A stretch of 64,000 nucleotides of DNA from Escherichia phage MX01, in sequence record NC_031934.1; one strand, written 5' to 3'. Both the position numbers and the translations under genes were made by a program. Below are positions 1,522-54,185 of the stretch, piece by piece. Within the stretch, counting starts at the first letter, position 1; each line of letters begins with the position of its first letter. The notes below the pieces were generated by a model, which ran no database searches, was not told where the DNA came from, and saw only the letters and a program-made list of their open reading frames with translations.

Positions 1522-3504
1522 ATGGCTTTATTATCACCGGGCATTGAGCTCAAAGAAACGTCCGTACAGAGTACTGTCGTTCGTAACGCAACGGGTCGTG
1601 CAGCGCTGGTTGGTAAATTCCAGTGGGGCCCTGCTTTCCAGGTAACTCAGATTACTAATGAAGTTGAACTGGTCGACTTATTTGGAGGTCCTAATAACGA
1701 AGTTGCCGATTACTTCATGTCGGGTATGAACTTCCTCCAGTATGGTAACGACCTTCGTACTGTTCGTGTTGTTAACCGTGAATTCGCTAAAAACGCATCT
1801 CCGGTAGCAGGTAACGTCCAAACCACTATTACTACTGCAGGTTCTAACTATGCGGTAGGCGATAAAATTAATATCAAATATAACCAGACTGTTGTTGAAT
1901 CTGAAGGTCGTGTAACTTCGGTTGATACCGACGGTAAAATTATGTCGGTGTTTATTCCTACCGGCAAGATTATTTCTTATGCTCGTTCTGTTAACCAATA
2001 TCCAGACCTTGGCGCTGCGTGGACTGCTGAAGTAACTTCTGCCTCTTCAGGTGTTTCTGGTACTATTACTGTCGGTAAAATCGTAACCGATTCCGGTATT
2101 CTGTTGACTGAAGCAGAGAACAGTGAAGAAGCTATTACTTCCCTAGAATTCCAAGCATCTCTTAAACAGTTTGGTATGCCTGGTGTAGTTGCTCTTTATC
2201 CTGGCGAAATTGGTAGTACTCTGGAAGTTGAAATTGTTTCTAAAGCGGCTTATGATGCAGGTTCTACTAAAATGTTGGATATTTATCCAAATGGCGGTAC
2301 TCGTGCTTCTGTAGCTAAAGCGGTATTCAACTACGGACCTCAGACCGATAACCAGTACGCTATTATTGTTCGTCGTGACGGTGCAATCGTAGAATCCGTC
2401 GTACTTTCTACCAAAGAAGGCGAAAAAGACGTTTACGGTAATAACATCTATCTGGATGATTATTTCGCTAAAGGTACTTCGAACTATATCTTCGCTACCT
2501 CGCTGAACTGGCCAGCCGGTTTTAGTGGTATCATTAATCTTATGGGTGGTGTATCTGCTAACGACCAGGTTACTGCAGGTGATTTGATGCAGGGTTGGGA
2601 TTTGTTCGCCGACCGTGAAGCACTCCATATTAACCTTTTGATTGCTGGTGCTGTTGCCGGTGAAGGTGATGAAGTTGCTTCTACCGTCCAGAAACACGTT
2701 GTTAGTATTGCTGATGAACGTCAGGATTGCTTAGCATTTATTTCTCCTCCTAAAGGACTGTTGGTTAACGTTCCATTGACTCGTGCAGTAGATAATCTTA
2801 TCGACTGGCGTACCGGTGCAGGTACTTTCGATGCCAACAACATGAACATTAGCACCACTTATGCTGCTATTGATGGTAACTATAAATATCAGTATGACAA
2901 ATATAATGACGTAAACCGTTGGGTGCCTCTGGCCGCTGATATGGCTGGTTTGTGTGCGCGTACAGATGATGTTTCTCAGCCTTGGATGTCTCCGGCCGGT
3001 TATAACCGTGGTCAGATTCTTAACGTTCTGAAATTGGCAATTGAACCACGTCAAGCTCAACGTGACCGCATGTACCAAGAAGCTATTAACCCGGTTGTCG
3101 GTTTTGCTGGTGGTGATGGATTCGTATTGTTTGGTGATAAGACTGCAACTAAAGTTCCATCTCCGATGGACCACATTAACGTTCGCCGTCTGTTCAACAT
3201 GCTTAAGAAAAATATCGGTGATGCCTCTAAATATAAGCTGTTTGAATTGAACGACAACTTCACTCGTTCAAGCTTCCGTATGGAAGTTTCTCAGTATTTA
3301 GATGGTATTAAGGCACTTGGTGGGATTTATGAAGGACGTGTGGTTTGTGATACTACGGTGAACACCCCTGCGGTTATCGACCGTAATGAGTTTATTGCTA
3401 ATATCTATGTTAAACCTTCTCGTTCTATTAACTACATCACGTTGAACTTCGTCGCAACGAGCACTGGTGCTGATTTTGATGAATTGATTGGACCTTTAGT
3501 ATAA
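1522..3504 (+). CDS. 18: Tail sheath protein gp18
   Basis: 660 aa; N-terminus MALLSPGIELKETSVQSTVVRNATGRAALVGKFQWGP matches T4 gp18; GAGGA RBS upstream; TATAAATA late box at 1485-1492. Confidence 0.97.
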   Translation: MALLSPGIELKETSVQSTVVRNATGRAALVGKFQWGPAFQVTQITNEVELVDLFGGPNNEVADYFMSGMNFLQYGNDLRTVRVVNREFAKNASPVAGNVQTTITTAGSNYAVGDKINIKYNQTVVESEGRVTSVDTDGKIMSVFIPTGKIISYARSVNQYPDLGAAWTAEVTSASSGVSGTITVGKIVTDSGILLTEAENSEEAITSLEFQASLKQFGMPGVVALYPGEIGSTLEVEIVSKAAYDAGSTKMLDIYPNGGTRASVAKAVFNYGPQTDNQYAIIVRRDGAIVESVVLSTKEGEKDVYGNNIYLDDYFAKGTSNYIFATSLNWPAGFSGIINLMGGVSANDQVTAGDLMQGWDLFADREALHINLLIAGAVAGEGDEVASTVQKHVVSIADERQDCLAFISPPKGLLVNVPLTRAVDNLIDWRTGAGTFDANNMNISTTYAAIDGNYKYQYDKYNDVNRWVPLAADMAGLCARTDDVSQPWMSPAGYNRGQILNVLKLAIEPRQAQRDRMYQEAINPVVGFAGGDGFVLFGDKTATKVPSPMDHINVRRLFNMLKKNIGDASKYKLFELNDNFTRSSFRMEVSQYLDGIKALGGIYEGRVVCDTTVNTPAVIDRNEFIANIYVKPSRSINYITLNFVATSTGADFDELIGPLV

Positions 3505-47586: not shown

Positions 47587-49272
<1,686 letters not shown>

Positions 49273-49880: not shown

Positions 49881-50270
49881 TTAGGCCTTAAAAGTTTTTT
49901 GCAAAAGTTCAATGATTTGGTCAACGTTCTGTTCGGTGACAATGCAATGGATTTGAGTCACACCGGCCTTAGCAATAGGCTCATCGATTTCTTTATCTTC
50001 CACAACATATTCACAGAAGCAATAGAACTCATCTTCATGCAACTCAAAATAATTTGGCACCAACCCAAATGCATTATAAATCTCGCCGTTAGCACATTCG
50101 ATTTCAGTCACAAATTTGTCGCCATCCATAGTCAACATATCCTTTACTTCAAACCAACCTCCGTTGTCTTGGATAAGGTCGACCATGCTTTTATTATTTT
50201 CATATTCGTCCATTTCAATAAAGTCTTTAATGCATTCAGGACGAAGTTCATAAGTTTTACCGATTTCCAT
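49881..50270 (-). CDS. Hypothetical acidic protein (frd.x slot)
   Basis: 129 aa; early promoter cassette upstream. Confidence 0.5.
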   Translation of the reverse strand: MEIGKTYELRPECIKDFIEMDEYENNKSMVDLIQDNGGWFEVKDMLTMDGDKFVTEIECANGEIYNAFGLVPNYFELHEDEFYCFCEYVVEDKEIDEPIAKAGVTQIHCIVTEQNVDQIIELLQKTFKA

Positions 50271-50289
50271 TTTATTTCCTCATCTATTA

Positions 50290-50335
50290 GTTGATAGGTC
50301 TATAGTATCATGTTTAAAGGTATTGTAAACCATTA
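50290..50335 (-). promoter_or_regulatory. Early promoter cassette, near-identical to copy at 49575-49620
   Basis: Same GTTTACAA-N-TACTATAGACCTATCAACTAAT core on minus strand. Confidence 0.55.
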
Positions 50336-50346
50336 AATGCCAAAAA

Positions 50347-50366
50347 GGGAAGACCGAAGTCTTCCC
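50347..50366 (-). terminator. Terminator hairpin downstream of gene 32 (GGGAAGAC-CGAA-GTCTTCCC)
   Basis: 8-bp stem with tetraloop, followed by T5 on the minus strand. Confidence 0.8.
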
Positions 50367-50382
50367 ATTATAAATCAATAAC

Positions 50383-51294
50383 TTATAGACCCGCTAACAG
50401 GTCGTCCAGACCATCGTCATCAGAAGGACTTACTGACGGCTCAGGAGTAGTGGAACGAGTCGGTGTAGATGGTTTGGAGTCATATGCATCAAGGTCTGCA
50501 CTGAATGCGTCCAGGTCATCACCAATCTTATCAGCGGCTGCAGAAGCTTTAGCGGCAGCACCACCAAGAGCAGCTGTACCAACAACTTTCTTAAACTTAG
50601 CTTCGTTAGTTTCGAATGATTTGAAATCGAGCAGTTTAGAAAGGTCGTGCATTTCTTCCATCAATTTAGCTTGGTAAGCTTCATCATTGATGTTAGGAAT
50701 TTCAGACTGACCCATGAATTTGGAATCGTCGTAGTTCTTGAAGTCGCCAACTTTCTTAGATTTCAGTACGAAGTTCGCACCATCAAACGGACATGTTACG
50801 TCAACCGGCACTTCACCAATATCAGTATCAACTTCAACCATCTGGTTGATTTTATCCATAATTTTCTGACCGAAACGGAATTTAAACACTTTACCTTCGT
50901 TAGCAGGCACTGCACTGTCCTTAATAACAAGGATGTTAGCCCAGAAGGAAGTTTTACGTTTCATCAGTTTGTATTCGGCATTATTAGTATTAAAGGTATC
51001 ATTCTGGTTCATGTATTTACATACAGGACATGAATCGAAATCACCATGAGTAGACGTACATGATTCGATATACCACTGACCATTTTTCTTAAAACCATGG
51101 TTAACAAGCTTAATGAATGGGGATGGATTAGCTTCGTTTTTCGAAGGAAGGAATCGAATAACTGCGGTTCCTACGCCATTGTCATCTTTCAATTTCCATT
51201 CGGATTTGTCATCAGACGAGAAAGAAGAGCCACCTTTCATTGCAGACAGTTGAGCAGCAAGTTCAGCAGGATTACGGCGTTTAAACATAGACAT
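50383..51294 (-). CDS. 32: Single-stranded DNA-binding protein gp32
   Basis: 303 aa; [12 protein letters not shown]..., RFLPSK, zinc-binding Cys/His region, acidic C-terminal tail; matches T4 gp32. Confidence 0.97.
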
Positions 51295-51369
51295 ATTATT
51301 TACCTTATTTGATATATTTAATAAATTTATTAACAGTTGTTGTTATCACGTTTACCTTGATAACTAGGT
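51295..51369 (-). promoter_or_regulatory. Putative gp32 autogenous translational operator: unstructured AU-rich leader plus upstream H-type pseudoknot candidate
   Basis: Minus-strand ACCT-a-GTTATCA-AGGT-aaacg-TGATAAC (interleaved stems) followed by about 40 nt of A/U-rich sequence up to the start codon. Confidence 0.5.
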
Positions 51370-51392
51370 TTTGAAGATGAAGTAATTATATA

Positions 51393-52037
51393 TCACTTCG
51401 AATAAAGCATTTTCAACTTAATGAATTCAGGGTCATCATTAGGAACCCAACCCTCATTAAATTGTTTAATCATACTCTTTGATGTAGTTTCACTAACATT
51501 TATACCAGAGTTAATGAGACGCCTCCATCCACAAGCTCTTCCACTAGAATTAATTATACAATAATTAGTATAAGCAATATCACTAAGCATCCAATCTAAA
51601 GGGTTTGCTCTAGAAGTTTTCCAAGGACGGTAATCAGGTTGATTCATATAGTTAGCAGCTTTCATATGGGCTCTAACTTCAGGACGTTTGGCTGGGTGAG
51701 TGCATCCAAAGACTCCAAATCCGCCACCGGCATAAACCAAATTAAAATAATCATCATTATCTCTAGCTTGAACTTCCAATTGTTCTGAACGTTCAATATT
51801 AATAACAATATCAAATGGCGTTATAGCCAAAATTTCAACAATAGGTTTTTCTTCTTCGATGGCCTCTTTAAATCTTGATTGCTCGCAAGAGGTCCAATAC
51901 TCTTTACCTTTACAGTCAATAATCACGCCATTTTCAAAAGTACAATTAGTTTTAGAACCTATGTACGAAAACGGCTTAATATTATTAGCCTGACGATTAA
52001 GCCAAGTCATTTTATAAACTATATTCAAAATTTGCAA
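51393..52037 (-). CDS. Hypothetical protein in the gene 32/59 junction (segG slot)
   Basis: 214 aa; no GIY-YIG/HNH motif recognised; start overlaps gene 59 stop. Confidence 0.5.
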   Translation of the reverse strand: MQILNIVYKMTWLNRQANNIKPFSYIGSKTNCTFENGVIIDCKGKEYWTSCEQSRFKEAIEEEKPIVEILAITPFDIVINIERSEQLEVQARDNDDYFNLVYAGGGFGVFGCTHPAKRPEVRAHMKAANYMNQPDYRPWKTSRANPLDWMLSDIAYTNYCIINSSGRACGWRRLINSGINVSETTSKSMIKQFNEGWVPNDDPEFIKLKMLYSK

Positions 52038-52678
52038 CCCTTAATTGTTTCAATGAACAATTTACGAGCTTCTAAATTATCGATTATAAGAATTTTCTTA
52101 TAAGCATTTAATTTAGTCGAATACTTAGACCATACTAAATCGTTGGTCTGTTCATCATGTTTATCAATTATATCCATAAATGAATCAAGCAAAATAAACG
52201 TTTCGAATGAAATAACATTCGATTGAAGGAGCTTAAAAATATAGCTCGAGTTAACTTTTTTATTATAATCAAAAATTTCAGAAAGCGATTGAACTTCCAC
52301 TTTCTTACTGAAATAATAAATGTTTTTGATATCATCCTCAAAAACTTGTTTTATTCTTTTAAGTCTACCGATATATTCTCGGTAAAAGACTAAGGCGTCA
52401 GCATCACTGATGTCGCCAATCCATGCGTCTTGGTTAGCTACCAAGTTACTCATGAAAATAAGAGCAAGCTCTTTCAAAGTGTATTTATCACTCAATTTCT
52501 CAAAGAAATATTTGTCACGACGTTTTTGGTAAGCCGTATCAGAGATTCGCATGACCCAGTTATATTTTATAACGTCGTATTTGGCATTGAAGTGATGTTT
52601 GAGCATTAAGTATAGTGAATATACGCTCTTACCATTCACCATACGGTTATTGTTTGGTGGCATGCGAATCTTAATCAT
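52025..52678 (-). CDS. 59: gp59 helicase loader
   Basis: 217 aa; near-identical to T4 gp59 as recalled. Confidence 0.95.
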   Translation of the reverse strand: MIKIRMPPNNNRMVNGKSVYSLYLMLKHHFNAKYDVIKYNWVMRISDTAYQKRRDKYFFEKLSDKYTLKELALIFMSNLVANQDAWIGDISDADALVFYREYIGRLKRIKQVFEDDIKNIYYFSKKVEVQSLSEIFDYNKKVNSSYIFKLLQSNVISFETFILLDSFMDIIDKHDEQTNDLVWSKYSTKLNAYKKILIIDNLEARKLFIETIKGCKF

Positions 52679-52977
52679 AACAAGAAATCCAGGGTATTAG
52701 TCTTTTGCGTTCGGGCCATTGAAGGTCGAAGCAAGTTATCATCAATGGCCTCGTTCATAATTTTATCAATAATTCCTGCAGGCAAATAACGAGCAAAGTT
52801 ACCTTCAGGAATGCTGTTCTCTTCCAACCATGCGGTAGCCGCTTCGAGGTAACTACAACCTTCAGCCTCAACAAAGGCCTCAATATCAAGACCATTCTGT
52901 TGTTTGTTTACCAATACATGGACAGGTTCGGAAGCGGTATTAACCGCTCCATCAAAATCATTCAAAGATTGTGTCAT
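52675..52977 (-). CDS. 33: gp33 late transcription co-activator
   Basis: 100 aa; C-terminal ...TNTLDFLL hydrophobic clamp-binding tail; position. Confidence 0.78.
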   Translation of the reverse strand: MTQSLNDFDGAVNTASEPVHVLVNKQQNGLDIEAFVEAEGCSYLEAATAWLEENSIPEGNFARYLPAGIIDKIMNEAIDDNLLRPSMARTQKTNTLDFLL

Positions 52978-53236
52978 ACAGTTCTACCACTTCAGTTTTT
53001 TCGTCTTCGAAACGTTCACGAGTGCCTTTATGGTACAGGGAGAACAGTTGGTTAAACATTTTACCGTCTACACCAAGTTCAGTCTTAGCACGGTCTTTGA
53101 TATCTTTAATTTCGTCACCGTAAGCTTCCATTTTTAATTTAGTATCGGAAGCAGACTTAATCAGTTGTGCCAATGTATTACCATGTTCTTCTTGATTGAA
53201 TTCAACTTTCACTTTTTCTTTAGCCATTATATTCAC
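52958..53236 (-). CDS. dsbA: DsbA-like dsDNA-binding protein
   Basis: 92 aa; position between 33 and rnh. Confidence 0.65.
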   Translation of the reverse strand: MNIMAKEKVKVEFNQEEHGNTLAQLIKSASDTKLKMEAYGDEIKDIKDRAKTELGVDGKMFNQLFSLYHKGTRERFEDEKTEVVELYDTIFE

Positions 53237-53237
53237 C

Positions 53238-54185
53238 TTAATAAAAATCAGCTACTGTAGCGGTTAGTTTAGACAAACCAGATTTAACGAAATAAGGATA
53301 AACTTTAGATTTCGAAGGTTTGTTATACGTATTATATCTTTCAGTAATTAAAGCAACAATATCATCTGGAATAAAGTCCATATCAATTAAGATTTGGTTT
53401 TCACAGAAACGTTCATATTGTTCTTCAGTAAGAAGTGTTTTAATTATATCATGGTCGTAATAATTAAGAGCAATTGCTTCAAGTTCCTTGGCACGAGTGC
53501 TAGGAGTACGTTCGCCTTCAACCATCGTCAACCAGTAATCACCACGAACTTTAATACTCGCGACGTTATCCTTGCGGTCGCCTTTAACAACCTTAGTTAC
53601 ACAATCCAATAATGAATCGCCAGATTTTGTTTTGACGAATTTTTTCTGCATTGGAGACCATTGTTTTACCCCAGGGAATTTATGGAGTTGGGTAAAGTCA
53701 CCATCCGAAGAACCGATCATAACAGGATGGCCTAAAGTTGTAAGGATACGGGTTAAAACAGCAATATGGTCGTCAGCTTCGATTGTATCGATATTCATAA
53801 CAATATAAGGCATGTTTTGTTCCAGTTCATCAACAATAATATGCATTGCTGTGAATAAACCTTCCCAATCAAATGGTGATTCGTCACGTGCCTTAGCACG
53901 GTTTTTCTTATAATAAGGTGAATAGCGACGACGCCAATAACCTGATTTAGAGTTATCAACACAAATAACCAGTTGGTTGTAACCTTGTTTACGGAAGTCT
54001 TTAATGTTTTTCTTAATTGAATTCAACACGAGGTGTCGAAGCATTGCTGTAGTTACTTTAGGAAATCCAGCATTCTCACCAAACTCTTGGAAAGCTGCAG
54101 CCATAATGATTTGGCTGAAATCTAGGAGTAAAAATCCATCTTTTTGTTGGTCTTCTTCAGGAAGTAAAAAATCTAAATCGTTCAT
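53238..54185 (-). CDS. rnh: RNase H (5'-3' exonuclease / flap endonuclease)
   Basis: 315 aa; CIDNSKSGYWRR, EADDHIAVL, SSDGDFTQLHK motifs as in T4 RNase H. Confidence 0.95.
   Translation of the reverse strand: MNDLDFLLPEEDQQKDGFLLLDFSQIIMAAAFQEFGENAGFPKVTTAMLRHLVLNSIKKNIKDFRKQGYNQLVICVDNSKSGYWRRRYSPYYKKNRAKARDESPFDWEGLFTAMHIIVDELEQNMPYIVMNIDTIEADDHIAVLTRILTTLGHPVMIGSSDGDFTQLHKFPGVKQWSPMQKKFVKTKSGDSLLDCVTKVVKGDRKDNVASIKVRGDYWLTMVEGERTPSTRAKELEAIALNYYDHDIIKTLLTEEQYERFCENQILIDMDFIPDDIVALITERYNTYNKPSKSKVYPYFVKSGLSKLTATVADFY

What the first reader, a model, noticed from the sequence alone, without database searches (positions are those of the whole stretch)
51393..52037. Unknown 214-aa ORF occupying the gene 32/59 junction, a homing-endonuclease hotspot in T4
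In T4 this junction carries segG, a GIY-YIG homing endonuclease. Here a 214-aa ORF with no GIY-YIG, HNH or other motif I can recognise sits in the slot, overlapping the stop of gene 59. It has several Cys/His residues (C..C near the N-terminus, GCTHPAKRPEVRAHMKA, CGWRR). It could be a novel free-standing endonuclease or an unrelated accessory (defence or anti-defence) gene acquired at a recombination hotspot.
Basis: partly seen in the sequence, partly recalled or inferred. Interest (0 to 1): 0.5.

Follow-up and report, generated by a model that had tools for sequence, protein, structure and literature searches.

The report
Diverged copy of T4 SegG endonuclease
The "unknown" ORF between genes 59 and 32 is the JS98-like phage version of T4's well-studied SegG, a selfish GIY-YIG homing endonuclease gene, so the finding is ordinary and already annotated in public records.

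Summary

Comparative evidence fits homing. About 685 bp here replaces 43 bp in segG-less JS98. The first ~315 nt of gene 32 form a diverged tract (84–91% versus 97–99% identity downstream) that goes with this segG allele. T4 and T2 differ in the same region. The cassette's 3' end carries a T4-type middle promoter, followed by a T4-type gene 32 leader pseudoknot.

Verdict: already known, low interest. The probable start is the TTG at 52028 (211 aa), not 52037.

The parts
51393..52028 (-). segG orthologue CDS with the probable TTG start (211 aa plus stop TGA at 51395..51393). The maximal ORF extends to the TTG at 52037 (214 aa).
   Evidence: the ORF; 58% identity, E=1e-88 to T4 SegG, with the alignment starting at codon 4; the PSD2002 protein is 211 aa and starts MNIVY; phrog_7504 'homing endonuclease', E=2.7e-113.
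52038..52042 (-). Shine-Dalgarno-like AAGGG inside the last codons of gene 59, 9 nt upstream of the TTG at 52028. The start TTG overlaps the gp59 stop TGA (TTGA, 52028..52025), which suggests translational coupling.
   Evidence: sequence 52060..51995; the last ~30 nt of gene 59 diverge from JS98 (ATTAAGGGTTGC versus ATCAAATCTTGT), so the SD-like sequence is specific to segG-carrying phages. Function is inferred.
51723..52028 (-). N-terminal GIY-YIG-type nuclease domain (ORF residues ~4-105). Y8 is the 'GIY' Tyr, Y25-I26-G27 is 'YIG', and E82 and N99 are the candidate catalytic Glu and Asn.
51621..51722 (-). Flexible linker (residues ~106-139) containing THPAKRPEVRAHMKAANYMN, possibly a degenerate NUMOD3-like motif.
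   Evidence: pLDDT below 50 at residues 101-112 and 120-128; distant relatives that share the N-domain carry Pfam NUMOD3 in the equivalent region. The window protein has no NUMOD3 hit, so the motif assignment is inference only.
51396..51620 (-). C-terminal helical domain (residues ~140-214), a predicted helix-turn-helix-type DNA-binding domain that would set target specificity.
51385..51412 (-). T4-type middle (MotA-dependent) promoter candidate for gene 32, embedded in the last codons and stop of segG: AAATGCTTTA (MotA box TGCTTTA, 51409..51403), a 12-nt spacer, then TATAAT (51390..51385).
   Evidence: the strict pattern occurs 4 times in 64 kb on both strands, against 0.45 in shuffles, and one copy is here; equivalent MotA box + 12 nt + TAnnnT in VR5, 04086, NC-G, JS98 and QL01 just upstream of gene 32. 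PMC2988022: in T4 the middle and late promoters of gene 32 lie within segG. Activity was not tested.
51342..51369 (-). T4-type gene 32 leader pseudoknot candidate: ACCU-A-GUUAUCA-AGGU-AAACG-UGAUAAC. It lies at the 3' edge of the DNA that is absent from JS98.
   Evidence: the 7-bp hairpin is predicted in the window, AnYang, VR5, 04086, T4 and T2 but not in JS98, QL01 or NC-G; all 11 pairs are formed in 5 sequences, 5 pairs show compensatory changes relative to T4/T2, and sliding controls fall to 24-49% paired. PMC535899: the T4 pseudoknot overlaps the segG 3' end. The sample is small and the structure was drawn by eye.
51342..52026 (.). Insertion/deletion polymorphism: 685 bp here replaces 43 bp in segG-less Dhakavirus JS98.
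   Evidence: homology with JS98 runs to 52027 and resumes at 51341.: ~10 Dhakavirus records carry the insert, and most (JS98, JS10, IME08, QL01, WG01 and others) lack it.
50980..51341 (-). Co-conversion-like tract: the gene 32 leader plus gene 32 nt 1-315 (codons 1-105). The allele is linked to this segG. The inferred SegG target lies near its distal end, around or after the Zn-finger CPVC codons 89-92.
   Evidence: 84-91% identity to phages without this segG in nt 1-315, against 97-99% in nt 316-912. There are 36 of 105 versus 16 of 198 codon differences (Fisher p=3.4e-8), 27 of the 36 synonymous. AnYang is 99.7% in the tract and 97.8% beyond it; the tract is 99.2-99.7% identical in all phages with this segG allele and 82-85% in segG-less ones. 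T4 and T2 gene 32 differences cluster at +207..+319.

Best explanation
The ORF encodes the Dhakavirus (JS98/Bp7-like T-even phage) orthologue of T4 SegG, a free-standing GIY-YIG homing endonuclease.

Proposed mechanism, by analogy with T4 SegG: when a segG-carrying phage and a segG-less relative infect the same cell, the enzyme binds DNA through its C-terminal helix-turn-helix-like domain. Its N-terminal GIY-YIG domain then makes a double-strand break inside gene 32 of the segG-less genome, roughly 300 nt into the gene. Repair copies from the segG-carrying genome. This moves segG together with the gene 32 leader and about the first 315 nt of gene 32 (co-conversion, also called marker exclusion).

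The cassette has no promoter of its own and appears to be translationally coupled to gene 59 (TTG start overlapping the gp59 TGA). Its 3' end supplies a middle promoter for the essential gene 32, followed by the leader pseudoknot, which would make deletion costly.

Shown here: the orthology, the fold, the presence/absence polymorphism, the linked tract and the motif matches. Inferred: nuclease activity, the exact cut site, and promoter and pseudoknot function.
For: Orthology: 58% identity, E=1e-88, full length, to annotated T4 SegG. tblastn finds T4/RB3/RB6 segG at E~1e-73. The gene order 33-59-segG-32 is the same as in T4. phrog_7504 'homing endonuclease' matches at E=2.7e-113. VR5's copy is annotated 'similar to T4 SegG (gp32.1)'.

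Mobility signature: 685 bp replaces 43 bp relative to JS98. Only a minority of relatives carry the gene: about 10 of ~47 Dhakavirus records and 141 of ~500 Tequatrovirus records. The diverged gene 32 5' tract is strictly linked to this segG allele, and it matches where T4 and T2 differ.

Regulatory signals: the middle-promoter pattern lies in the last codons, and the pseudoknot shows compensatory changes.

Literature: T4 SegG is a GIY-YIG endonuclease inserted between genes 32 and 59 that targets gene 32. It is a promoter-less cassette with gene 32 promoters embedded in it (PMC2988022; PMC2330249; PMC535899).

Against: The canonical catalytic Arg (I-TevI R27) has no clearly conserved counterpart. 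R55 is conserved in 10 of 11 SegG-family members but not in wider relatives.

The sequence around the CPVC codons (gene 32 nt 265-293) is identical in segG-carrying and segG-less Dhakaviruses. So what protects the carrier's own gene 32, and exactly where the cut falls, remain unresolved.

Phage 04086 carries the tract-like leader with a different Seg gene, so linkage between leader type and Seg type is not absolute.

No activity was measured.
Confidence: 0.9

Rival explanations
1. A domesticated or decaying SegG remnant. The ORF is kept because it contains the promoter of essential gene 32 and precedes its leader pseudoknot, while the nuclease itself is inactive or no longer mobile.
For: Gene 32 promoter-like signals lie inside the ORF's 3' end and the leader pseudoknot follows it. 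PMC2988022 notes that embedded promoters favour retention of the endonuclease gene. The start codon is the weak TTG. The canonical Arg is not clearly conserved.
Against: The ORF is full length and intact, with all other GIY-YIG signature residues invariant. The cassette plus tract is 99.2-99.7% identical across phages whose adjacent gene 32 sequence is only ~97.8% identical, which points to recent horizontal spread rather than passive retention. Segregating presence/absence is as expected for an active element.
Confidence: 0.07
2. An unrelated accessory gene (defence, anti-defence or exclusion function) acquired at a recombination hotspot.
For: The slot is variable: empty, SegG-type or NC-G-type Seg within one genus. 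Homing endonucleases do act in phage-phage competition (marker exclusion, PMC2330249), so in a loose sense the gene excludes competitor alleles.
Against: No PADLOC match. There is unambiguous full-length homology to an experimentally characterised homing endonuclease, a GIY-YIG fold, and a linked co-conversion tract typical of homing.
Confidence: 0.02
3. A chance ORF or annotation artefact with no protein product.
For: No canonical ATG start at the position homologous to T4. Several GenBank records call it 'hypothetical protein' or start it at an internal ATG.
Against: A 214-codon ORF conserved at 47-99% protein identity in 10 clusters with 60 invariant columns. A confident two-domain structure prediction. 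234 profile hits in 1.84 billion proteins.
Confidence: 0.01

Closest known systems
Bacteriophage T4 SegG (gp32.1), free-standing GIY-YIG homing endonuclease (Liu et al. 2003, J Mol Biol 334:13; reviewed in PMC2988022)
   Same: 58% identical and collinear over the whole protein. Same slot between genes 59 and 32, same orientation. Same presence/absence polymorphism among close relatives. Gene 32 promoter signals embedded in the 3' end and a gene 32 pseudoknot at the 3' boundary. Diverged gene 32 5' region consistent with a distant cleavage site in gene 32. Neither protein is detected by Pfam GIY-YIG models.
   Different: 42% of residues differ. The start is a TTG overlapping the gp59 stop, whereas T4 has an ATG one base after it. 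The stop lies 98 nt upstream of gene 32 and ahead of the pseudoknot, whereas the T4 ORF runs into the pseudoknot. Host gene 32 is only ~65-68% identical to T4's at the DNA level, so the recognition sequence may differ. No experimental data exist for this orthologue.
I-TevI (T4 td intron endonuclease), prototype GIY-YIG homing endonuclease; catalytic domain structures 1LN0 and 1MK0
   Different: Only ~14% identity, with no significant sequence or profile match. SegG has a 15-residue spacer plus an extra beta-hairpin between the GIY and YIG-proximal elements, no Zn finger, and no detectable NUMOD3 or I-TevI_DNA-bd domain. It is free-standing rather than intron-encoded, and by analogy with T4 SegG it cuts hundreds of bp from its insertion site.
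NC-G/04086-type Seg endonuclease occupying the same 59/32 slot in other Dhakaviruses
   Same: Same slot, orientation and size (209 aa). N-terminal ~60 residues are very similar (MNIVYWLEF...YIGSK...GKEYWSSC). Overall 29% identity, E=2e-24.
   Different: The C-terminal two-thirds are highly diverged, so it is a different lineage and probably has a different specificity. In NC-G it is associated with the JS98-type gene 32 leader.
SegE-like GIY-YIG domain family (Pfam PF19835) with NUMOD3-containing Seg-like endonucleases
   Same: About 200 protein clusters share the ~100-residue N-terminal domain (E down to 1e-24). 13 of 38 sampled touch PF19835 at sub-threshold scores.
   Different: Those proteins are ~270-420 aa with NUMOD3 repeats and other C-terminal domains. 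Only 4 representatives in 1.84 billion proteins share the full SegG architecture at E<1e-30.

Membership tests
T4 SegG orthologue group | Full-length sequence homology to T4 SegG | tested here: met
   BLASTP 58% identity, 72% positives, E=1e-88, residues 4-211 versus 1-210. tblastn to annotated segG of T4, RB3 and RB6 at E~1e-73.
T4 SegG orthologue group | Located between gene 59 and gene 32, in the same orientation as its neighbours | tested here: met
   Window: gp59 52025..52678, ORF 51393..52037, gp32 50383..51294, all on the minus strand. T4: 59 / segG / 32.
T4 SegG orthologue group | Site-specific cleavage within gene 32 of genomes lacking segG | not testable with these tools
   Indirect evidence only: a diverged, allele-linked tract covering gene 32 nt 1-315, in the same region as the T4/T2 difference cluster.
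Free-standing homing endonuclease gene | Presence/absence polymorphism with clean boundaries among otherwise near-identical genomes | tested here: met
   685 bp versus 43 bp relative to JS98, with flanks 92-97% identical. About 10 Dhakavirus records have it and most lack it. Same pattern in Tequatrovirus, 141 of ~500.
Free-standing homing endonuclease gene | Co-conversion of flanking markers linked to the endonuclease gene | tested here: met
   The tract allele is 99.2-99.7% identical in all carriers of this segG and 82-85% in non-carriers. Identity steps up at gene 32 nt ~315, Fisher p=3.4e-8. This is comparative evidence, not a cross.
GIY-YIG nuclease superfamily | GIY-YIG alpha/beta fold | tested here: met
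GIY-YIG nuclease superfamily | 'GIY' and 'YIG' motifs with conserved Tyr residues | tested here: met
   N-I-V-Y8 and Y25-I26-G27-S28. Y8, Y25 and G27 are invariant in 38 relatives. The spacer is 15-16 residues rather than the usual 10-11.
GIY-YIG nuclease superfamily | Catalytic Glu and Asn (I-TevI E75, N90) | tested here: met
   E82 and N99 are invariant. hhalign aligns IERSEQ with IERENF and YFNL with GYNI (the alignment itself is not significant, E=0.13).
GIY-YIG nuclease superfamily | Conserved Arg in the first helix (I-TevI R27) | tested here: inconclusive
   R55 at the start of helix 54-62 is conserved in 10 of 11 SegG-family sequences, but the column is variable in the wider N-domain family. 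Model coordinates could not be inspected.
GIY-YIG nuclease superfamily | Match to curated sequence models (Pfam PF01541 or PF19835) | tested here: not met
   No hit for this protein or for T4 SegG itself. Only sub-threshold hits in 13 of 38 (PF19835) and 2 of 38 (PF01541) of the N-domain relatives. This reflects model sensitivity, because the experimentally characterised T4 SegG fails too.
Anti-phage defence systems (PADLOC) | Match to any defence-system protein model | tested here: not met
   0 families at E<=1.

The most novel reading that the evidence does not exclude
In Dhakaviruses, SegG-driven co-conversion may carry more than the endonuclease gene. It may also carry a whole alternative regulatory module for the essential gene 32: its own MotA-type middle promoter, a T4-type leader pseudoknot that is absent from segG-less JS98, QL01 and NC-G, a 2-codon-longer gp32 N-terminus, and 9 amino-acid changes in gp32 residues 1-105. 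If so, a selfish nuclease would be swapping the autoregulatory RNA operator and the N-terminal cooperativity region of the phage single-stranded-DNA-binding protein between lineages. The enzyme may also have a target specificity different from T4 SegG, since the two gene 32 sequences are only ~65-68% identical.
Probability: 0.3. Interest if true: 0.35.

Novelty: already known. Interest (0 to 1): 0.12.

Why it matters
It matters little as a discovery. The gene family, its insertion slot, its target gene and its mode of inheritance were established for T4 SegG in 2003, and the Dhakavirus copies are already labelled as homing endonucleases in public records.

The practical value is corrective.
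- SegG-type proteins escape the Pfam and NCBIfam GIY-YIG models, so motif-based reading and routine annotation miss them. Several records call them 'hypothetical protein'.
- Several deposited annotations start the gene at an internal ATG, which removes the GIY strand.
- The natural-population data give a clean example of a co-conversion tract ending about 315 nt into gene 32. This could guide mapping of the Dhakavirus SegG cleavage site.

Tried and rejected
- Pfam, NCBIfam and PADLOC scans of the ORF gave nothing meaningful. The DUF2799 hit (E=0.09) is noise.
- phmmer and profile searches of PDB sequences, with the SegG family (A1) and with the wider N-domain profile (A3), gave only chance hits with E>=0.3.
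- hhalign of the N-domain profile against I-TevI was not significant (E=0.13), although the aligned segment is the expected one.
- The Rfam scan of 50000-53500 found only a chance snoRNA match and no curated gene 32 pseudoknot family.
- The sigma-70 promoter and terminator scan found no more sites than in shuffles and was uninformative. No exact late-promoter TATAAATA lies in the ORF, only TATAAAT(G) at 51504..51498.
- The global MAFFT alignment of the junction misplaced the right-hand boundary. It was replaced by local BLAST.
- The primary SegG paper (PMID 14596796) is not in the held library. The exact T4 cleavage coordinate (~332 bp from the insertion site) is therefore my recollection only. 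It was replaced by an empirical T4 versus T2 comparison.

Full report
OBSERVATION. The ORF exists as described. It runs 51393..52037 on the minus strand, 214 codons from a TTG, between gene 32 (50383..51294) and gene 59 (52025..52678), and it overlaps the gene 59 stop. Pfam confirms the neighbours as gp32, gp59 and gp33. The window is ~99% identical to Escherichia phage LHE83 and 98% identical to Bp7, PSD2002 and IME540. These are T-even phages of the genus Dhakavirus (JS98 group).

WHAT IT IS. The ORF is not unknown.
- PHROGs places it in phrog_7504 'homing endonuclease' at E=2.7e-113.
- tblastn against phage genomes finds annotated segG of T4, RB3 and RB6 at 58% identity over 97% of the query, E~1e-73.
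- Direct BLASTP against the T4 SegG protein gives 58% identity, 72% positives, E=1e-88, collinear from residue 4 to 211.
- The T4 locus has the same order, 33-59-segG-32.
- Near-identical proteins are already annotated 'homing endonuclease' (PSD2002, LHE83, Bp7 RefSeq). The VR5 record says 'similar to bacteriophage T4 SegG (gp32.1)'.

WHY THE MOTIF WAS MISSED. Neither this protein nor T4 SegG matches any Pfam model. NCBIfam and PDB sequence searches are also empty. The family alignment (11 sequences) and a wider alignment of the N-terminal domain (38 sequences) show a degenerate signature: N-I-V-Y8, a 15-residue spacer, Y25-I-G-S-K29, then Y47..S50, E82 and N99, all invariant.

A profile search of 1.84 billion representative proteins found 234 relatives. 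Only four share the full-length architecture at E<1e-30. About 200 share only the ~100-residue N-domain, fused to other C-termini that carry NUMOD3 motifs. Of 38 sampled, 13 give sub-threshold SegE_GIY-YIG hits.

The counterpart of the catalytic Arg of I-TevI is uncertain. R55 is conserved only within the SegG group.

START CODON. The TTG at 52028 (codon 4 of the listed ORF) aligns with the T4 ATG, and the PSD2002 annotation uses it (211 aa). It has AAGGG 9 nt upstream and overlaps the gp59 TGA as TTGA. Starts at the internal ATG (codon 10), as used for VR5 and AnYang, would delete the GIY strand and are probably wrong. The AAGGG lies in the last codons of gene 59, which differ from JS98.

MOBILITY SIGNATURE. 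Against segG-less JS98, homology runs up to 52027 and resumes at 51341, so 685 bp replaces 43 bp. About 10 of ~47 close Dhakavirus records carry the insert. In the T4 genus, 141 of ~500 do, and T2 and T6 lack it.

Downstream of the insert, the gene 32 leader and the first ~315 nt of gene 32 are only 60-92% identical to JS98 in 40-nt bins. The remaining 600 nt are 92-100% identical per bin (97.3% overall). That is 36 differing codons of 105 against 16 of 198 (Fisher p=3.4e-8), and 27 of the 36 are synonymous.

The tract allele is 99.2-99.7% identical in every phage with this segG allele (Bp7, AnYang, IME540, PSD2002, LHE83, FB) and 82-85% in all segG-less Dhakaviruses. In AnYang the tract is closer to the window (99.7%) than the rest of gene 32 is (97.8%). 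That is what horizontal spread of cassette plus tract would produce.

As a calibration, T4 (segG-carrying) and T2 (segG-less) gene 32 differ in a cluster at +207..+319. The literature states that T4 SegG targets gene 32, excludes the T2 gene 32 marker, and that free-standing endonucleases cut hundreds of bp from their own gene (PMC2988022; PMC2330249). My recollection that the T4 site is ~332 bp from the insertion site could not be verified, because the paper is not held.

One open point remains. Gene 32 nt 265-293 (the CPVC Zn-finger codons and those following) is identical in carriers and non-carriers. The discriminating positions, if any, must be the flanking differences.

REGULATORY CONTENT OF THE CASSETTE. 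The last codons of the ORF read AAATGCTTTA-12 nt-TATAAT (51412..51385). This is a strict T4 middle-promoter pattern that occurs only 4 times in the 64-kb window, against 0.45 in shuffles. Equivalent MotA-box promoters precede gene 32 in all compared phages, and in JS98 one lies directly after the gene 59 stop. The cassette therefore replaces the promoter it displaces, as reported for T4 (PMC2988022).

Immediately downstream, 51369..51342 can form an H-type pseudoknot that matches the T4/T2 gene 32 autoregulatory pseudoknot. All 11 pairs form in 5 sequences, and 5 pairs show compensatory changes. Sliding controls fall to 24-49% paired. The sample is small and I drew the structure by eye. JS98, QL01 and NC-G leaders lack this hairpin.

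ALTERNATIVES. A defence or anti-defence gene is unsupported. A decaying remnant is unlikely, given the intact ORF, the invariant catalytic residues and the evidence of recent spread. A chance ORF is excluded by conservation.

COMPARISON AND VERDICT. This is the Dhakavirus orthologue of T4 SegG. It has the same slot, architecture and inferred life-style. It differs in 42% of residues, in its start-codon arrangement, and in stopping before rather than inside the leader pseudoknot. It is already present and annotated in public databases. Novelty: already known. Interest is low (0.12).

The least ordinary reading still open concerns co-conversion. It may move an alternative gene 32 regulatory leader and gp32 N-terminal allele between Dhakavirus lineages. 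That is plausible but modest, and it fits published ideas (PMC535899).

Noticed in passing
L004 (Escherichia phage AnYang, NC_055782) 2672-3358, minus strand; also IME540: AnYang and IME540 carry a second free-standing endonuclease (228 aa) inserted between genes 59 and 33, which the window lacks. It is a canonical GIY-YIG + NUMOD3 + I-TevI-type DNA-binding-domain protein (Pfam E=5e-5, 9e-5 and 1.6e-14).
   Followed up: partly
L005 (phage NC-G) 1363-1992 and L008 (phage 04086) ~1296-2014: A different Seg-like endonuclease (29% identical to the window protein, with a similar N-terminus and a diverged C-terminus) occupies the same 59/32 slot in NC-G. Phage 04086 has an intact copy that is not annotated in its GenBank record. 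So the slot has at least three states within one genus.
   Followed up: partly
window 51342-51369 (minus strand), compared with L002 (JS98), L009 (QL01) and L005 (NC-G) leaders: Dhakavirus gene 32 leaders come in two types. One has a T4-like pseudoknot (window, AnYang, VR5, 04086) and one lacks it (JS98, QL01, NC-G). Leader type is not strictly tied to which Seg gene is present, since 04086 pairs the NC-G-type Seg with the pseudoknot leader.
   Followed up: partly
window 51286-51294 (gene 32 start): gp32 in segG-carrying phages and in NC-G begins MSMFKRR, two codons longer than JS98, QL01, T4 and T2 (MFKRK). Nine amino-acid differences from JS98 fall within residues 1-105, against one in the remaining 198.
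   Followed up: partly
window 47587-48447 (minus strand): The thymidylate synthase (td) gene is an uninterrupted 286-codon ORF. This phage therefore lacks the td group I intron and the I-TevI gene that T4 carries at the equivalent position (compare L003).
   Followed up: no
L007 (VR5) 1394-2005 and L004 (AnYang) 1394-2011: The deposited CDS annotations of the SegG orthologue in VR5 (203 aa) and AnYang (205 aa) start at an internal ATG. This removes the N-terminal NIVY ('GIY') strand. The TTG start homologous to the T4 ATG is more likely correct.
   Followed up: partly
window 51498-51504 (minus strand): A near-consensus T4 late-promoter sequence, TATAAAT(G) (7 of 8 matches to TATAAATA), lies inside the segG coding region ~205 nt upstream of gene 32. 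T4 is reported to have a gene 32 late promoter inside segG.
   Followed up: no
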